Shown: piece by piece, positions 17,978-63,432 of the stretch
Numbering within the stretch: position 1 is the first letter of the stretch
How the letters are laid out: every line of letters starts with the position of its first letter
Assembly (NCBI GenBank): GCA_009691445.1
Contig: SICL01000001.1
Coordinates: 129,738-193,737 of the forward strand
Reading direction: 5' to 3'
Length of the DNA: 64,000 nucleotides
Origin: Candidatus Taenariivivens baikalensis
Lineage (GTDB): Bacteria; Omnitrophota; Omnitrophia; Omnitrophales; Aquincolibacteriaceae
Position numbers and translations under genes: made by a program
Notes under the pieces: model-generated
Seen by the model: the letters and a program-made list of their open reading frames with translations, nothing else
Databases searched by the model: none
Told to the model about the DNA's origin: nothing

Positions 17978-19639
17978 TCAGGAAGAATGGCAGTTTTCAG
18001 GATGCGTCGATTCAAGGACAAGTGTCTTTGAATCCCGGAATAAAACCCTGACGACCGAGGCAAGAAGCGAAGGAAACGCCTTTTCAGAAGGGACGATGAA
18101 ATAACGAAATCCATAATCCCGGCACAAAGAGTCATACTCGCCGCGAACTGCCAACTCCTTGATGACTTTATCTTTAGACTCGAGGAGCGCAGGAACCCGG
18201 GAAAGATATCCAAACGCCATCGGCTTTTCATGCAGCGTCTGGTAATACAAGGCTTCGTGGCGGGTGGAGACTGTGTCGATCATAGCCCCTGGCGGTAACG
18301 TCTGTAAAAGTCGGATAGACTCAGGGACGCTCATCGAAATTCCTGGGAATCTTGCCGGCCAATATTCAAAAAAAAGCACGACCATCAGCAAAGAGGTGAA
18401 AACACGATGCTTCATCGGTCCTCGCCACAAGTTCCTCAAGGCCATCGCACCGATCACGGCAAGACTGAGTTGAGTCACATCAAACATCCGCGCAGGAATA
18501 CCGGACAATTTAAAAGCTGGAAAAAAATATTCCAAAGCTGCATAAGGCAGAGGAACCGGGTAGGCCCTCCCCATCAGATTCAGCTGTGGACCAAGTGCAA
18601 AAATCGCAAAGACTCCCGCAAGGCCCAGCCAAAGATTCAGTGACTCTTCCTGAAAAGATTTCCGGTTAAAGAGGACGTAGAGAAGCAAAAAAATCAGCGT
18701 AAACCCAACAAATAAACTAGATTCATAGTAATTACCCTTCCAGGAACCCCAGATCTCCCGAGTCCAAGCCGCATAATGAGAAAATCCACCGGGCAGCAAG
18801 GGTGAAAGAAGATCCATCGAATAATCACGGGAATCATGCAATCCTTCCGGCAGAGGCCCCTGGGAATATCCGTGAAGCATCGGCTTGATAAATAAAAAAA
18901 CACTGATCAGGAAAAGAGAGGCCACAAACGTCACGACTTTTCGATTTTGAAATAATAAATTCAGGAAATCCTTTCCCGTTCTTTTTACGAACCCGAGAAA
19001 AATAAGAAAAACACAGAGAGCGGCATAAAAAAAATAATACTGACAGCTCCATGAAATAAGGAAGAAAACGATGGCGGCCGCAATCCCCTTTCGAACATTA
19101 AAGGTTTCGAGAAATTGAAAGGTTAATAAAAGGAAGAGCGGGTTCCATTCAAAGGAAATCATGTGGATATGTCCTGAGGCTGCGTGGGCCATATGGGCAT
19201 TGGAAAACGCATAAATCAATCCCCCGGCAAGACTCGGGATGTAAGACCGCGTAAAATAGCGGCACAAACAGAAGGCGTTGAGCCCACCCAGGACAAACGA
19301 TCCCATGACCAGAAAATTATGGGACTGGATTCTTGTGAAAACAAACTGGAGTCCGGTATAGATCAACCCCTTCAGGGGAGCCAGACTGTGCGTATACAGA
19401 TCAACTCCGAAAGGGTAATGCAGAAAGCTTGTATGCCAAAAAGACGTGTGGAGCGACAGAAGAGACTTGGAAATCCACCAGAGGTTCCAAATGGACTGAA
19501 GACCATCCCGCCTGTCCGTGAAAAAATGAGATGAAAACTTCTGCATCAAAGGGAATGTGTAAACGTAAAAACAGAAAAAATAAATGAGGGCAGGAACGAC
19601 GAACGAAGTAAAACTCTTCCCGATTTTTTGAGAATTCAT
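17978..19639 (-). CDS. Polytopic membrane protein, putative GT-C-like glycosyltransferase (YfhO/DUF-type)
   Basis: More than 12 TM helices and a HYPFG motif. The start was trimmed to the ATG at 19639 (MNSQKIGK). The track's TTG start at 19732 would make the ORF run through a structured repeat element. Confidence 0.45.
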   Translation of the reverse strand: MNSQKIGKSFTSFVVPALIYFFCFYVYTFPLMQKFSSHFFTDRRDGLQSIWNLWWISKSLLSLHTSFWHTSFLHYPFGVDLYTHSLAPLKGLIYTGLQFVFTRIQSHNFLVMGSFVLGGLNAFCLCRYFTRSYIPSLAGGLIYAFSNAHMAHAASGHIHMISFEWNPLFLLLTFQFLETFNVRKGIAAAIVFFLISWSCQYYFFYAALCVFLIFLGFVKRTGKDFLNLLFQNRKVVTFVASLFLISVFLFIKPMLHGYSQGPLPEGLHDSRDYSMDLLSPLLPGGFSHYAAWTREIWGSWKGNYYESSLFVGFTLIFLLLYVLFNRKSFQEESLNLWLGLAGVFAIFALGPQLNLMGRAYPVPLPYAALEYFFPAFKLSGIPARMFDVTQLSLAVIGAMALRNLWRGPMKHRVFTSLLMVVLFFEYWPARFPGISMSVPESIRLLQTLPPGAMIDTVSTRHEALYYQTLHEKPMAFGYLSRVPALLESKDKVIKELAVRGEYDSLCRDYGFRYFIVPSEKAFPSLLASVVRVLFRDSKTLVLESTHPENCHSS

Positions 19640-19654
19640 AGCGCAGGGGGTTTT

Positions 19655-19736
19655 GTCATTGCGAGTCCCGCGCCTTGGCGGAGACACGGCAATCTCTGGC
19701 CAAAACCCGAGATTGCTTCGCTTTGCTCGCAATGAC
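19655..19736. repeat. Structured intergenic repeat (copy A): terminal inverted repeats GTCATTGCGAG/CTCGCAATGAC and nested inner inverted repeats GCAATCTC/GAGATTGC
   Basis: 11 bp perfect terminal inverted repeats about 60 bp apart, with an 8 bp inner inverted repeat. Homologous to the copies at 54147-54260 and 63357-63420. Confidence 0.7.
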
Positions 19737-19796
19737 TGAGAGAAAGTTGATAACCAAATAGGCTGTTAGTTTCTTGCATGATTTAATATTTTAAAA

Positions 19797-28254: not shown

Positions 28255-28357
28255 TAACTATTCTCCTGGTAAAGTTGCGCTATTATAGGTTCAAGATAGG
28301 TTTGTGGCAAGGAATGAGGAGCAGTGACGCCGCCATTGCAAGCGAACGGAGTGAGAT

Positions 28358-28723
28358 CTACCTTGTGAGATAGGCAATAATCTGAAATCTTCGTTTTGAA
28401 TCGGGTGTGAGATTCTTCAGGACAAGGTGCACAAAGGGCCCGTAAATCTTGGTGGCCAAAACCCGGGACGATGTTTCTCCGGTTGTCAGCTTGTAAAACG
28501 CTGTTGGGATTTCTTTTTTATCCTCATCAACGCCCATACTGCCGAACTCCTGCCACCCATTGGTGGAGAAATCTTTGCTGGCTTCGCCCATTTCCTGAAT
28601 TTTCTGAATGTCACCCTGAATAGAAAAATAGGCGTCCAACCGGTAGAGAGGAGCTGTTTCATCCGTCATGATCAGGTCAGGGATCACATAAAAGGTTACT
28701 TCCCGGTAGTCTCTTACATCCAA
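28358..28723 (-). CDS. Hypothetical protein (TTG start), possibly the 3' remnant of a disrupted gene
   Basis: 121-aa ORF with no recognisable motifs. Upstream in another frame is a protein-like reading frame interrupted by an in-frame TGA. Confidence 0.25.
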   Translation of the reverse strand: MDVRDYREVTFYVIPDLIMTDETAPLYRLDAYFSIQGDIQKIQEMGEASKDFSTNGWQEFGSMGVDEDKKEIPTAFYKLTTGETSSRVLATKIYGPFVHLVLKNLTPDSKRRFQIIAYLTR

Positions 28724-37470: not shown

Positions 37471-37503
37471 ATCATCCTAAATTTTATCATTGCGAATGTG
37501 TCG

Positions 37504-38295
37504 TTAATTCCCTAACGGGGCGAAGCGTTCAAGCAATGTTCCAAGCCTCGTCAGGGCAAGTTTCTGATTCACGTTCTGATCCAAAGCGTCCTTAGTTTCA
37601 AAAACTTTGTCCACAGCCCGAAGAAGAGATACCGAAGAATCCTCCTCAAGCTGAAGCCTCAAAGTATAAGCTAATTCATCCAGATGAGACAAAATCTCCT
37701 GGCGCGTCTTATCCTGAAGTGCGTCCAGCAGATTGACCCAGGAACGAGATTTTTTTAAATCCCATGGCTGCATGTCAGCCGCTTCCCGTCCGCTGGGACG
37801 GAACCGCAGCTCAAAACAGCGCGACTGAATCGTTTCAATCATATTGGAACGGTTCTCGGTCATCAAAATAAAAATGGAGTGCGCTGGCGGCTCTTCCAGA
37901 GTTTTCAGAAACGCATTGGACGCGTCCATCGTCAGTCGGTCAGCAGCCGGAACAAGAAACACTTTCCACTTTGCCTCAAAAGGTTTTAAGGATGCGAGGT
38001 GGATTTGATTCCGCACTTCTTCAATTTTTATGGACTTAGCCTTGAGGTCTGCGCCCACAATGTGAAGATCTGGGTGAGAATCCTCTTTAGCCTTCAGGCA
38101 GCTTGAGCATTCACAATGCTCAAAACCATTTCCGGACGGACATAAAAGAGCACTTGCAAAGGACCGGGCTACCTCTTCCTTGGCACTGCCTTTGTCTCCG
38201 GTAAAAAGATAGGCGTGGGAAAGGCGGTCCTGTTTGAGATGCGCGGTCAAAATGCGAAGCACAAATTCCTGTTTATTTTTCCAATTTAAAGACAC
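37504..38295 (-). CDS. holB: DNA polymerase III delta' subunit
   Basis: HAYLFTGDKGSAK, a zinc module CECSSC, and a SRC box (IQSRC). Confidence 0.8.
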   Translation of the reverse strand: MSLNWKNKQEFVLRILTAHLKQDRLSHAYLFTGDKGSAKEEVARSFASALLCPSGNGFEHCECSSCLKAKEDSHPDLHIVGADLKAKSIKIEEVRNQIHLASLKPFEAKWKVFLVPAADRLTMDASNAFLKTLEEPPAHSIFILMTENRSNMIETIQSRCFELRFRPSGREAADMQPWDLKKSRSWVNLLDALQDKTRQEILSHLDELAYTLRLQLEEDSSVSLLRAVDKVFETKDALDQNVNQKLALTRLGTLLERFAPLGN

Positions 38296-54146: not shown

Positions 54147-54260
54147 CTCATTGCGAGCGATCGCATCGACCCCGGGAATCTAGAGCGTTAAGATTGTCCG
54201 CCACAAAATCTTCGGACGGATCCGCCGTGCTCTCTGTAGGACTTCGCTTCTCTCGCAATA
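54147..54260. repeat. Structured intergenic repeat (copy B) with ends TCATTGCGAG ... CTCGCAAT
   Basis: Lies in the 219 bp spacer upstream of ilvE. Both ends and the internal segment (cttcgctt.ctcgcaat) match copy A; the GCGATCGCATCGA segment matches copy C. Confidence 0.65.
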
Positions 54261-54270
54261 ACGGGCTCTA

Positions 54271-63337: not shown

Positions 63338-63356
63338 AACAACCAACAAAGCCCTG

Positions 63357-63420
63357 CCATTGCCTGCGAAGCGATGCAATCGAGAGAGATCAGCACGCCC
63401 TACGGCCTCGCGCGATGACC
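63357..63420. repeat. Structured intergenic repeat (copy C, inverted relative to A)
   Basis: CCATTGCCTGCGAAGCGATGCAATCGAG...CCTCGCGCGATGACC aligns with the reverse complement of copy A at about 23 of 27 positions at one end, with conserved terminal ends. It lies between convergent metH and the M48 gene. Confidence 0.55.
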
Positions 63421-63432
63421 GTTTTGACTTTT

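What the first reader, a model, noticed from the sequence alone, without database searches (positions are those of the whole stretch)
19655..19736. Family of short structured repeats with terminal inverted repeats CATTGCGAG/CTCGCAATG, at least three copies in 64 kb
- **Copy A (19655-19736):** 11 bp perfect terminal inverted repeats GTCATTGCGAG/CTCGCAATGAC enclose a nested 8 bp inverted repeat GCAATCTC/GAGATTGC and a GC-rich third stem.
- **Copy B (54147-54260):** shares both ends (TCATTGCGAG ... CTTCGCTTCTCTCGCAAT).
- **Copy C (63357-63420):** is an inverted, shorter version (…CATTGCCTGCGAAGCGATGCAATCGAG…CCTCGCGCGATGACC).
- **Possible degenerate copies:** 28333-28362 (CCATTGCAAGCGAACGGAGTGAGATC) and 37484-37537.

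All copies lie in intergenic spacers: inside an operon, upstream of ilvE, and between convergent genes. This looks like a REP/MITE-like dispersed element, or a structured RNA motif such as an attenuator or processing site. The family is likely genome-wide.
Basis: seen in the sequence. Interest (0 to 1): 0.6.

Follow-up and report, generated by a model that had tools for sequence, protein, structure and literature searches.

The report
Widespread REP-like palindromic repeat element
The hairpin-forming repeat is real: it is one intact and two or three decayed copies of a short selfish-type palindromic DNA repeat (REP/REPIN-like, "CGTC-headed") found in the spacers between genes in many bacterial phyla, so it is an ordinary kind of element, although what spreads this class is still unknown.

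Summary
Copy A (19653-19738) is exactly as described. Copies B and C are real but decayed relatives. One "possible" copy (37489-37537) looks like a lone arm; the other (28333) is unsupported.

The family is not specific to this genome.

Each element is an inverted pair of about 28-35 nt units:
- a (C/T)GTC head;
- a 5-bp stem, ATTGC/GCAAT, which covaries in sister families;
- tandem G·A pairs;
- a GCGNAGC apex, the stable DNA mini-hairpin motif;
- a CCA or CTC tail.

The elements have no target-site duplication and no linked transposase or fixed gene neighbour. Their orientation shows no bias relative to genes, and they are depleted between divergent genes. They show presence/absence at orthologous sites, with arms conserved and loops diverging.

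Rfam has no match. The closest description is the CGTC-tagged REP superfamily (Di Nocera 2013), whose four families do not include this unit.

Verdict: a REP/REPIN-type dispersed repeat, a new member of a known kind, not a gene-specific regulatory RNA. Mobilisation as single-stranded DNA is inferred, not shown.

The parts
19653..19738 (-). Copy A: an intact inverted dimer of two REP-like units. The canonical orientation (short-apex arm first) is the minus strand.
   Evidence: The family covariance model scores it at 51.4 bits, E = 2e-11, over the full model length. The sequence was read. The fold beats all 200 shuffles.
19655..19665 (.). Outer block GTCATTGCGAG: head (T)GTC plus ATTGC plus GAG. 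It pairs with 19726-19736.
   Evidence: The same 10-mer termini occur in 264 pattern matches (247 unique elements) from the two collection scans.
19666..19688 (.). Variable side hairpin (the long apex of the plus-strand-first arm): TCCCGCGCCTTGGCGGAGACACG.
   Evidence: Other copies carry unrelated hairpins with compensatory stems at this position.
19689..19696 (.). Inner block GCAATCTC: the second half of the arm stem (GCAAT) plus the CTC tail. It pairs with 19709-19716.
19697..19708 (.). Central spacer or loop, TGGCCAAAACCC. This is the variable part of the element.
   Evidence: Loops are only 66% identical between orthologous copies, against 97% for the arms.
19709..19716 (.). Inner block GAGATTGC of the second arm.
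19717..19725 (.). Complement of the short apex. The minus strand reads CAAAGCGAA, so the apex is GCAAAGC, a one-base variant of the GCGNAGC mini-hairpin.
   Evidence: alignment. 172 of 191 unconstrained short apexes are GCGNAGC; GCAAAGC occurs 3 times.
19726..19736 (.). Outer block CTCGCAATGAC of the second arm.
54147..54262 (-). Copy B: a decayed copy. Both outer blocks and the short apex are kept (GTTATTGCGAGAGAAGCGAAG ... CTCGCAATGAGA on the minus strand). The inner blocks are degraded and the centre is about 74 nt longer than the model.
   Evidence: Model hit at 13.3 bits, E = 0.27, third best in the window. The arm word matches in 0 of 100 shuffles. Sequence read.
63354..63421 (+). Copy C: a decayed copy in the opposite orientation. 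The first arm is 21 of 24 identical to the consensus and the second arm is weak (CCTCGCGCGATGACC).
   Evidence: Model hit at 12.6 bits, E = 0.41, fourth best in the window. The arm word matches in 0 of 100 shuffles. Sequence read.
37485..37540 (+). Possible lone, decayed arm (ATC ATTGC GA ... GCGAAGC ... GCAAT). It overlaps the stop-codon end of ORF 37504..38295.
   Evidence: The ordered signature words match in 0 of 100 shuffles, but the pattern was chosen after seeing the sequence. The dimer model does not detect it. ORFs.

Best explanation
Copy A is an intact member, and B and C (perhaps also 37489-37537) are decayed members, of a REP/REPIN-type family of non-coding, non-autonomous dispersed repeats.

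**Anatomy.** The element is an inverted pair of units with their heads outward. Each unit reads, 5' to 3' on its own strand:
- a (C/T)GTC head;
- a 5-bp stem, ATTGC...GCAAT;
- an internal GA/GA(A) that can form tandem sheared G·A pairs;
- an apex that is either the GCGNAGC mini-hairpin or a longer variable hairpin;
- a tail, CCA or CTC.

A variable spacer of 10-25 nt joins the two units. The whole element can therefore fold either as two small hairpins or as one long branched hairpin.

**How it most likely works.**
- Shown: the sequence spreads into spacers, mostly downstream of genes, independently of gene function.
- Shown: its arms stay conserved while its loop drifts.
- Inferred, by analogy with the GTAG-headed REPs (REPINs) and their REP-associated tyrosine transposases (RAYTs): it is copied or moved as single-stranded DNA, with each arm hairpin recognised by a structure-specific enzyme acting in trans. 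That enzyme has not been identified.
- Inferred: in this window it has no gene-specific role. Any effect on the operon mRNA, such as a stable hairpin 15 nt before the next start codon, would be a by-product.
For: **Shown**
1. The family is real and very wide. The pattern TCATTGCGAG-N35-65-CTCGCAATGA reached the 120-locus limit in viral contigs and in one-genome-per-species contigs. Hits include Bradyrhizobium, Sphingomonas, Pedobacter, Flavobacterium, Microcoleus, Chloroflexi, Planctomycetota, Berkelbacteria, Zixibacteria and Coxiellaceae. Novosphingobium, Methylosinus, Calothrix and Legionella replicons also carry it, unannotated.
2. The termini extend to (C/T)GTC...GAC(G/A) as inverted repeats. 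No direct repeat of 2-9 nt flanks them.
3. The arm hairpin covaries. With the stem left free, the scans returned ATTGC/GCAAT, ATCGC/GCGAT, ATTCT/AGAAT, ATCCT/AGGAT, ATGCT/AGCAT, ATACT/AGTAT, ACCCT/AGGGT and ACTCT/AGAGT. One stem pair shows UA 30, CG 29, GC 10 and AU 4, and the covariation score exceeds all 500 shuffles and all slid controls. In some copies a single arm changed while keeping its own pairing.
4. Where the apex was unconstrained, 172 of 191 are GCGNAGC, with N = A 67, C 58, T 27, G 20. This is the rule for the very stable DNA mini-hairpin: only GNA triloops form it, and DNA melts at about 76 °C against about 39 °C for the RNA tetraloop analogue r(GCGAAAGC) (PMC13037366).
5. Orthologous sites are filled or empty (L018, L029 and L020 against L047 and L035). 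In orthologous copies the arms are 227/234 identical, the flanking coding DNA about 88% and the loops 66%.
6. 150 genes next to genomic copies fall in 170 Pfam families, none dominant and no transposase among the families listed (the top 25 by count). Recurrent neighbours in viral contigs are only phage and gene-transfer-agent (GTA) genes.
7. Copies occur in 34 convergent against 9 divergent spacers, against a background of 223 and 198 (p = 1.7e-4).
8. Orientation relative to genes is unbiased.

**From the literature.** CGTC-headed REPs have the same head, AT-starting stem, CCA tail, inverted-dimer habit, cross-phylum spread and lack of a linked transposase (PMC3733652).
Against: - No mobilising enzyme was found here or in the literature, so the single-stranded-DNA transposition step is analogy only.
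- The near-identity of the arms across phyla and between orthologous copies could reflect a host function (protein binding, or RNA or DNA structure) rather than mobility.
- Exact insertion junctions could not be read, because the only filled and empty pairs differ by about 20% in the spacer.
- Copy number in the source genome is unknown.
- The covariation counts come from expanded subfamilies, so the number of independent events is smaller than the number of sequences.
- Gene calls in the loci came from a crude longest-ORF caller.
Confidence: 0.8

Rival explanations
1. The element is a functional structured RNA in the operon transcripts, such as a terminator, attenuator, RNase processing site or 3'-end stabiliser, as shown for some E. 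coli REPs. Its conservation reflects that RNA role.
For: - The element forms a very stable hairpin on either strand.
- It lies inside operons and downstream of genes and is depleted in divergent, promoter-bearing spacers.
- Its arms are conserved between orthologous copies.
- The stems covary.
- Copy A ends 15 nt before the next start codon.
Against: - Rfam has no match at any threshold.
- No U-run follows copy A on the transcribed strand.
- The asymmetric elements and the lone arms face either way relative to genes: 42 against 34 and 23 against 27. The reverse orientation gives a different, pyrimidine-mismatch hairpin in RNA.
- The apex follows the DNA mini-hairpin rule, which is much weaker in RNA.
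- Neighbouring genes are unrelated.
- The element is absent from the 33 relatives of the downstream gene.
- A secondary, by-product effect on mRNA is not excluded.
Confidence: 0.1
2. The element is a miniature inverted-repeat transposable element (MITE). It would be derived from, and moved by, a DDE-transposase insertion sequence that carries the same terminal inverted repeats.
For: - The terminal inverted repeats are perfect over 11-12 bp.
- The element is 60-90 nt long and occurs in many dispersed copies.
- Orthologous sites are filled or empty.
Against: - No target-site duplication at any offset or length from 2 to 9 nt.
- No transposase lies between or beside copies in about 2.4 Mb of flanking DNA.
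- The conserved features are internal hairpins with covarying stems, not just the ends.
- Lone arms are common: 150 of 355.
- The same termini across many phyla would require one IS with an extraordinary host range.
Confidence: 0.04
3. The element is a double-stranded DNA binding site for a widely conserved dimeric or tetrameric host protein (nucleoid, gyrase, partition or repair factor). The ATTGC/GCAAT words would be the contacts.
For: - Four ATTGC/GCAAT words sit in alternating orientation with two-fold symmetry.
- The sequence blocks are conserved across phyla.
- The arms are conserved at orthologous sites.
- There is no strand bias.
Against: - The stem words change in a compensatory way in sister families: ATTCT/AGAAT, ATCCT/AGGAT and ACCCT/AGGGT. 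This is expected for pairing, not for a fixed protein contact.
- The spacing between the words varies from 7 to more than 25 nt because hairpins of arbitrary sequence are inserted.
- Copy number per genome varies widely and many lineages have none (PMC3733652).
Confidence: 0.05

Closest known systems
CGTC-tagged REPs (Di Nocera, De Gregorio and Rocco 2013, BMC Genomics 14:522; PMC3733652). They include Rickettsia RPE-4 and RPE-6 and Neisseria dRS3.
   Same: - The head is CGTC, often TGTC: here 68% C and 26% T before GTC.
- The stem starts with AT.
- The 3-nt tail is mostly CCA.
- The units are mostly arranged as inverted dimers with 20-100 bp spacers.
- They lie between unidirectional and convergent genes.
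- They occur in several phyla and have no linked transposase.
- The first five stem bases and the tail equal those of their CGTC-3 unit (ATTGC...GCAAT CCA), as inferred from the peptide VIAGLDPAI.
- A typical CGTC-1 dimer lies next to copies of this family in a Ca. Tisiphia locus.
   Different: - Their families have perfect stems of 8-9 bp and loops of 4-5 nt. Here only 5 Watson-Crick pairs are followed by GA/GA and a GCGNAGC apex, so a single arm is a weaker palindrome and the two arms of a dimer are complementary to each other.
- None of the peptides they list for families 1-4 (VIPAKAGI, VILDGRNIEF, VIAGLDPAI, VIPWLDHGI) corresponds to this unit, which would read VIASEAKQS.
- Their Figure 2 could not be viewed, so inclusion as a variant is not excluded.
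- The phyla found here go beyond their five.
GTAG-headed REPs and REPINs, with their RAYT transposases (E. coli, Pseudomonas, Stenotrophomonas)
   Same: - Short imperfect palindromes with a conserved unpaired head.
- Inverted doublets that fold as one long hairpin.
- Intergenic location with a 3'-of-gene preference.
- No target duplication.
- The proposed mobilisation as single-stranded DNA is the working model adopted here.
   Different: - The head is (C/T)GTC, not GT[AG]G.
- No RAYT or other Y1 gene was seen beside copies (PMC3733652).
- GTAG families are mostly genus-specific, whereas this unit keeps the same sequence across phyla.
Bacterial MITEs (for example Correia elements, Nezha and the Coxiella QMITEs)
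   Same: - Size below 150 nt.
- Terminal inverted repeats.
- Many intergenic copies.
   Different: - No target-site duplication.
- No parent IS.
- The conserved internal hairpin architecture is not a MITE feature.
DNA mini-hairpin d(GCGNAGC), found at single-strand initiation sites (phage G4 origin, RSF1010 ssiA) (PMC13037366)
   Same: The short apex of the arm is exactly GCGNAGC, with N free and G and A fixed.
   Different: Those are single functional sites in replication origins that are recognised by primases. Here the motif caps a dispersed repeat, and no link to priming was tested.

Membership tests
CGTC-tagged REP superfamily (PMC3733652) | An unpaired head CGTC (variants TGTC and CCTC) at one end of each unit. 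| tested here: met
   In 250 unique copies the base before GTC is C in 68% and T in 26%, and G is 98% at the next position. Copy A has TGTC on the plus-strand arm and AGTC on the minus-strand arm.
CGTC-tagged REP superfamily (PMC3733652) | A stem of 8-9 bp that starts with complementary A-T pairs in positions 1 and 2. | tested here: inconclusive
   The stem starts AT(T) and ends (A)AT. Only 5 Watson-Crick pairs (ATTGC/GCAAT) are present. The next positions are G·A, A·G and then G-C, C-G. Counting the G·A pairs gives 9 positions, the same length as CGTC-3 and CGTC-4.
CGTC-tagged REP superfamily (PMC3733652) | A loop of 4-5 nt. | tested here: not met
   The apex is a GNA triloop inside GCGNAGC (172 of 191), or a longer variable hairpin.
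CGTC-tagged REP superfamily (PMC3733652) | A 3-nt tail, mostly CCA. | tested here: met
   The consensus is GCAATCCAG. A CTC tail is common in low-GC hosts and is the form in copy A.
CGTC-tagged REP superfamily (PMC3733652) | Units mostly arranged as inverted dimers with spacers of about 20-100 bp; intergenic, between unidirectional or convergent genes; no linked transposase. | tested here: met
   205 arms are in dimers and 150 are lone. Spacers containing a copy: 91 tandem, 34 convergent, 9 divergent. No transposase appears among the families listed for 150 neighbours.
Classical REP / REPIN-RAYT system | A GT[AG]G head at the foot of the hairpin. | tested here: not met
   The head is (C/T)GTC.
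Classical REP / REPIN-RAYT system | A cognate RAYT (Y1 HUH) gene flanked by the repeats (a REPtron). | tested here: inconclusive
   None was seen in about 2.4 Mb around copies, and none is reported for CGTC REPs. Whole genomes could not be scanned.
MITE (DDE-type) | A target-site duplication flanking the terminal inverted repeats. | tested here: not met
   Direct repeats of 3-9 nt are not enriched at offsets 0-6, apart from a weak 3-nt excess at offset 3 (9 seen against 3.9 expected). The flanking CG/CG and TG/CA pairs are inverted, not direct, repeats.
MITE (DDE-type) | A full-length IS with the same termini. | tested here: inconclusive
   Pairs of copies 0.3-3 kb apart enclose ordinary or phage genes only. 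No collection-wide search was made.
Rfam structured RNA families | A match to a curated covariance model. | tested here: not met
   No hit in the window at gathering thresholds. No hit at E <= 10 on copy A beyond chance-level miRNA or snoRNA models. No relevant hit in eight loci from six phyla.
Intrinsic terminator | A GC-rich hairpin followed by a U-run on the transcribed strand. | tested here: not met
   On the minus strand copy A is followed by AAAACCCCCTGCGCT.

The most novel reading that the evidence does not exclude
The (C/T)GTC-headed, GCGNAGC-capped hairpin units (this family plus its ATTCT, ATCCT, ATGCT and ACCCT sister families) may form one cross-phylum superfamily of single-stranded-DNA elements. 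Their partner would not be a RAYT. It would be either an unrecognised structure-specific enzyme that is itself widespread, or a universal part of the replication machinery, for example primase or exclusion of single-strand-binding protein (SSB), as at the mini-hairpins of the G4 and ssiA origins. That would explain why the same 28-nt unit is kept almost unchanged from Patescibacteria to Bradyrhizobium and why no transposase has ever been linked to it.
Probability: 0.15. Interest if true: 0.7.

Novelty: new member of a known kind. Interest (0 to 1): 0.35.

Why it matters
**For this window.** The result is mainly practical. The hairpin is not a regulatory signal of the neighbouring genes, and the mechanical ORF that runs through it (17978..19732) has a spurious N-terminal extension.

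**More widely.**
- The unit generates recurring fake peptides in protein databases, for example ...SLRAKRSNL... and ...RNDK in the read-through of copy A. From my own memory, similar strings such as VIASEAKQS and RLLRFARND recur widely; this was not tested here. A model of the family would help mask them.
- The family adds a well-defined fifth type to the CGTC-headed REPs.
- It shows that its arms follow the rule of the very stable DNA mini-hairpin.
- It extends the host range to many more phyla.
- It sharpens a question left open since 2013: what copies these repeats when no transposase is linked to them.

Tried and rejected
- **Rfam.** Searched at gathering and at permissive thresholds, on the window and on eight loci. 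Nothing relevant.
- **Literature by sequence.** Searching for the sequence strings found only primers and chance matches.
- **Linked protein.** All-against-all clustering of 2,000 ORFs around copies gave only phage and gene-transfer-agent (GTA) families, a bias of the viral collection. A small Cys-rich helix-turn-helix (HTH) protein flanked by two copies in L031 proved to be shared by related phages, not a general partner. A Pfam scan of 150 genomic neighbours showed no enriched family and no transposase.
- **Empty-site test for copy A.** The metagenome scan with the downstream protein returned only relatives at 31-42% identity, without conserved gene order. Exact junctions in this organism could not be read. 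Those loci also carry no copy.
- **Source organism.** One window protein was found only on a 6-kb Logan contig of run SRR8561390, a run accession cited in a Lake Baikal metagenome study. The taxon was not determined.
- **Curated phage genomes.** They hold only four partial matches. The many IMG/VR hits probably come from prophage, GTA or host DNA.
- **Considered and rejected on reading the sequence:**
  - integron attC sites, because there are no RYYYAAC/GTTRRRY cores;
  - a CRISPR array, because there is no regular spacing;
  - a kink-turn RNA, because the single bulged A lies 3' of the GA, not in a 3-nt bulge 5' of it.
Full report
**1. The observation**

- GTCATTGCGAG (19655-19665) and CTCGCAATGAC (19726-19736) are perfect inverted repeats.
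- GCAATCTC (19689-19696) and GAGATTGC (19709-19716) are nested inside them.
- The stretch 19666-19688 holds a GC-rich hairpin.

Either strand folds better than all 200 shuffles. The 9-mer CATTGCGAG alone is only weakly enriched: 3 hits against 0.67 expected. Longer arm words settle the matter. A 24-mer with up to 3 mismatches finds only A and C. An 18-mer with up to 1 mismatch finds only A and B. Neither occurs in any of 100 shuffles.

All three copies are intergenic:
- A lies between an LMF1/DCC1-like gene and a 553-aa membrane protein on the minus strand.
- B lies between an ABC ATPase and a class IV aminotransferase.
- C lies between convergent metH and an M48-like ORF.

The mechanical ORF 17978..19732 reads through copy A and gives LRAKRSNLGFWPEIAVSPPRRGTRNDK. 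The real start is most likely the ATG at 19639.

**2. The family elsewhere**

It did the same in the one-genome-per-species collection. About 17 chance matches would be expected in the latter (my estimate from its size).

Named hosts include:
- Bradyrhizobium, Sphingomonas, Sphingobium and Novosphingobium;
- Micavibrio, Rickettsiales, Coxiellaceae and Thioalkalispiraceae;
- Desulfobacterales;
- Pedobacter, Mucilaginibacter, Flavobacterium, Sphingobacterium and Bacteroidales;
- Microcoleus;
- Chloroflexi/Anaerolineae/Dehalococcoidia;
- Planctomycetota/Pirellulales;
- Patescibacteria/Berkelbacteria;
- Zixibacteria and Moduliflexus.

Large plasmids and secondary replicons of Novosphingobium (at least 40 places in a 1.76-Mb replicon), Methylosinus, Methylocystis, Calothrix and Legionella also carry it, without annotation. 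Curated phage genomes hardly do: four partial hits.

The elements are 58-85 nt long, with a mode of 77-82 nt.

**3. Anatomy**

Aligning 140 copies and sorting them by arm length shows two units in inverted orientation, heads outward. Each unit, read 5' to 3' on its own strand, is:

(C/T)GTC – ATTGC – GA – apex – GA(A) – GCAAT – C(C/T)(A/C)

The spacer between the units is variable.

The apex was not constrained by the search pattern:
- 172 of 191 short apexes are GCGNAGC, with N = A 67, C 58, T 27, G 20.
- 27 of 29 five-base apexes are G-GNA-C.
- Longer apexes are hairpins of unrelated sequence with compensatory stems, for example GCCCGCC-TAG-GCGGGC and GTCCGTCA-GT-TGACGGAC.

GCGNAGC is the sequence rule of the very stable DNA mini-hairpin. 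According to the 2026 review by its discoverers, only GNA triloops form it. The DNA form melts near 76 °C, whereas the RNA tetraloop analogue r(GCGAAAGC) melts at about 39 °C (PMC13037366). The GA before and the GA after the apex can form tandem sheared G·A pairs. That is my reading of the sequence and was not tested.

Copy A has the one-base apex variant GCAAAGC on the minus-strand-first arm and a long apex on the other arm.

**4. Is the arm a hairpin?**

I scanned with the stem left free:
- GTCANNNNGAGCGNAGCGAANNNNTC returned ATTGC/GCAAT in 76 of 85 new arms, plus the compensatory ATCGC/GCGAT.
- A scan that excludes G at stem position 4 returned 140 arms, of which 106 were fully complementary: ATTCT/AGAAT 54, ATCCT/AGGAT 38, ATGCT/AGCAT 6, ATACT/AGTAT 4, ACCCT/AGGGT 3 and ACTCT/AGAGT 1.

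On the alignment of the 87 distinct arms from that scan, one stem pair is UA 30, CG 29, GC 10 and AU 4. Overall, 90.5% of cells pair, against 21-52% when partners are slid. The covariation score exceeds all 500 shuffles.

The model search also turned up copies in which one arm carries ACCCT/AGGGT or ATCCT/AGGAT and the other ATTCT/AGAAT. Pairing is thus kept within an arm even where pairing between the arms is lost.

The caveat is that each stem type is an expanded subfamily, so the independent events number about eight, not a hundred.

**5. Behaviour in genomes**

- *No target-site duplication.* Direct repeats of 3-9 nt are not enriched at the ends at offsets 0-6, apart from a weak 3-nt excess at offset 3 (9 seen against 3.9 expected). 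The flanking CG/CG or TG/CA pairs continue the inverted repeat.
- *No orientation bias.* Asymmetric dimers between same-strand genes run 42 with and 34 against the genes. Lone arms run 23 and 27.
- *Depleted between divergent genes.* Copies lie in 34 convergent against 9 divergent spacers, where the background is 223 against 198 (p = 1.7e-4).
- *No fixed neighbours.* 150 neighbouring genes fall into 170 Pfam families, at most 4 per family, with no transposase among the families listed. The recurrent neighbours in viral contigs are portal, capsid and gene-transfer-agent (GTA) tail genes.
- *Present or absent at one site.* One orthologous spacer is filled in L018, L029 and L020 and empty in L047 and L035.
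- *Arms conserved, loops drifting.* Across four orthologous pairs the arms are 227/234 identical, the flanking coding DNA about 88% and the central loops 66%.
- *Flipped in place.* In a fifth pair (L051 and L059) the element sits at the same site in the opposite orientation.

**6. The window again**

The covariance model built from the 140 foreign copies finds A at 51.4 bits on the minus strand. B (13.3 bits) and C (12.6 bits, plus strand) are the next hits.
- B keeps both outer blocks and the short apex, has lost the inner blocks, and has about 74 extra bases in the centre.
- C keeps a good first arm and a poor second arm.

Neither 'possible degenerate copy' is found by the dimer model. The site 37489-37537 has ATTGCGA, GCGAAGC and GCAAT in order and is plausibly a lone decayed arm (a pattern chosen after the fact). 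The site 28333 is not supported.

Thirty-three loci encoding relatives at 31-42% identity of the gene downstream of copy A have no copy and no conserved gene order.

The source organism is unidentified. One window protein was found only on a short Logan contig of run SRR8561390, a run accession cited in a Lake Baikal metagenome study. The window is 46% G+C.

**7. Comparison with what is known**

Rfam 15 has nothing.

The closest description is the CGTC-tagged REP superfamily of Di Nocera, De Gregorio and Rocco (PMC3733652). Those units have:
- a CGTC or TGTC head;
- a stem of 8-9 bp starting with AT;
- a loop of 4-5 nt;
- a CCA tail;
- mostly inverted dimers with 20-100 bp spacers;
- a location between unidirectional and convergent genes;
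- a spread over five phyla;
- no associated transposase.

Their list of intragenic copies lets the units be back-translated. This back-translation is my inference:

| Family | Listed peptide | Inferred unit |
|---|---|---|
| CGTC-1 | VIPAKAGI | ATTCCCGC-GAAG-GCGGGAAT |
| CGTC-3 | VIAGLDPAI | ATTGCCGGG-CTTGA-CCCGGCAAT |
| CGTC-4 | VIPWLDHGI | not derived |
| CGTC-2 | VILDGRNIEF, RHSELVSGS | not derived |

The unit found here would read VIASEAKQS in one frame and ...LRFARND in the reverse. None of the signature fragments searched (VIAS, AKQS, ARND, SLRG, HCE, LAMT) occurs in their files.

The window family thus shares the head, the first five stem pairs and the tail with CGTC-3, and has the same overall length. 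It replaces the inner stem and loop by GA / GCGNAGC / GA(A). I could not see their Figure 2, so I cannot exclude that it appears there as a variant. Later papers only cite the 2013 work.

The family fails the defining features of three other kinds:
- classical GTAG REPs, because the head differs and no RAYT (REP-associated tyrosine transposase) gene is linked;
- DDE-type MITEs, because there is no target duplication;
- intrinsic terminators, because there is no U-run.

**8. Mechanism and confidence**

Shown:
- a dispersed, non-coding repeat family;
- hairpin-forming arms;
- no gene-specific association;
- presence and absence at orthologous sites;
- arms under constraint.

Inferred:
- The arms act as single-stranded DNA hairpins. 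The evidence is the DNA-type apex rule, the lack of strand bias relative to transcription, and the absence of a target duplication.
- They are copied or moved by a trans-acting, structure-specific enzyme, by analogy with RAYTs and REPINs (inverted REP doublets). This step has no direct support, and the enzyme is unknown.

I give 0.8 to 'REP/REPIN-type dispersed repeat of the CGTC-headed kind'. Within that, I give roughly 0.4 to mobilisation as single-stranded DNA by a dedicated enzyme.

A by-product effect of copy A on its operon mRNA is possible but untested. The element forms a stable hairpin that starts 60 nt after one gene and ends 15 nt before the next start codon.

**9. Verdict**

The kind of element is known and ordinary. 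The specific unit appears undescribed, is spread across an unusually wide range of phyla, and belongs to the class of REPs with no known mobilising enzyme. That gives it moderate rather than high interest.

Noticed in passing
L085:2930-3450: A tandem mosaic array. Three copies of the ATTGC-type dimer alternate, with a period of about 157 nt, with a second palindromic repeat of the ATCCT/AGGAT type (CCCATCCTTCGAGGCTCGCTGCGCTCGC..CTTCAGGATGAGGGGG). The arrangement recalls the BIME repeat clusters of E. coli (Bacterial Interspersed Mosaic Elements).
   Followed up: partly
L051:1836-1916 and L059:4818-4898: The orthologous spacer (flanks 85-88% identical) carries the element in opposite orientations, with the long-apex arm on opposite sides. 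This suggests either an inversion in place between the arms or an independent insertion at the same site.
   Followed up: partly
L195:2126-2779 (Candidatus Tisiphia endosymbiont): Four palindromic elements lie within about 650 nt: three of the ATTGC family, one with ATCGC/GCGAT stems, and one typical CGTC-1 (Rickettsia RPE-6-like) dimer, TGTCATTCCTGCGAAAGCAGGAATCTAGATTCCCGCCTACGCGGGAATGACA. A further lone arm follows.
   Followed up: partly
window:17978-19732 (minus strand): The longest mechanical ORF of the gene downstream of copy A starts inside the repeat. This adds a spurious N-terminal stretch, LRAKRSNLGFWPEIAVSPPRRGTRNDKTPCA, before the likely true start, MNSQKIGK, at 19639. Gene callers could produce the same kind of artefact wherever this repeat sits near a gene start.
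   Followed up: partly
window:1-58000: Almost every long ORF is on the minus strand for about 58 kb, and GC skew is negative in every 8-kb bin (-0.04 to -0.14). This is as expected if the minus strand is the leading strand of replication.
   Followed up: no
L031:5837-6626; also L048, L011, L117, L077, L052: A small Cys-rich protein with a C-terminal helix-turn-helix (about 100-130 aa, ...WDLLPEDFPYEDEGCELFPHCLTCPFP...VSVRTVQRWLK) is flanked on both sides by copies in L031 and lies within 300 nt of a copy in two related phage-like contigs. It looks like a phage gene shared by relatives, not a partner of the repeat.
   Followed up: partly
It is a convenient complete, cultured host for counting copies and searching for a partner gene.
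   Followed up: no
window:15459-15489 and window:36483-36511: Short unrelated palindromes (GGTCATCGC..GCGATGGC and CGTTACTTC..GAAGTAACG) scored weakly with the family model (E = 1-3). They are probably chance hairpins inside coding regions.
   Followed up: no
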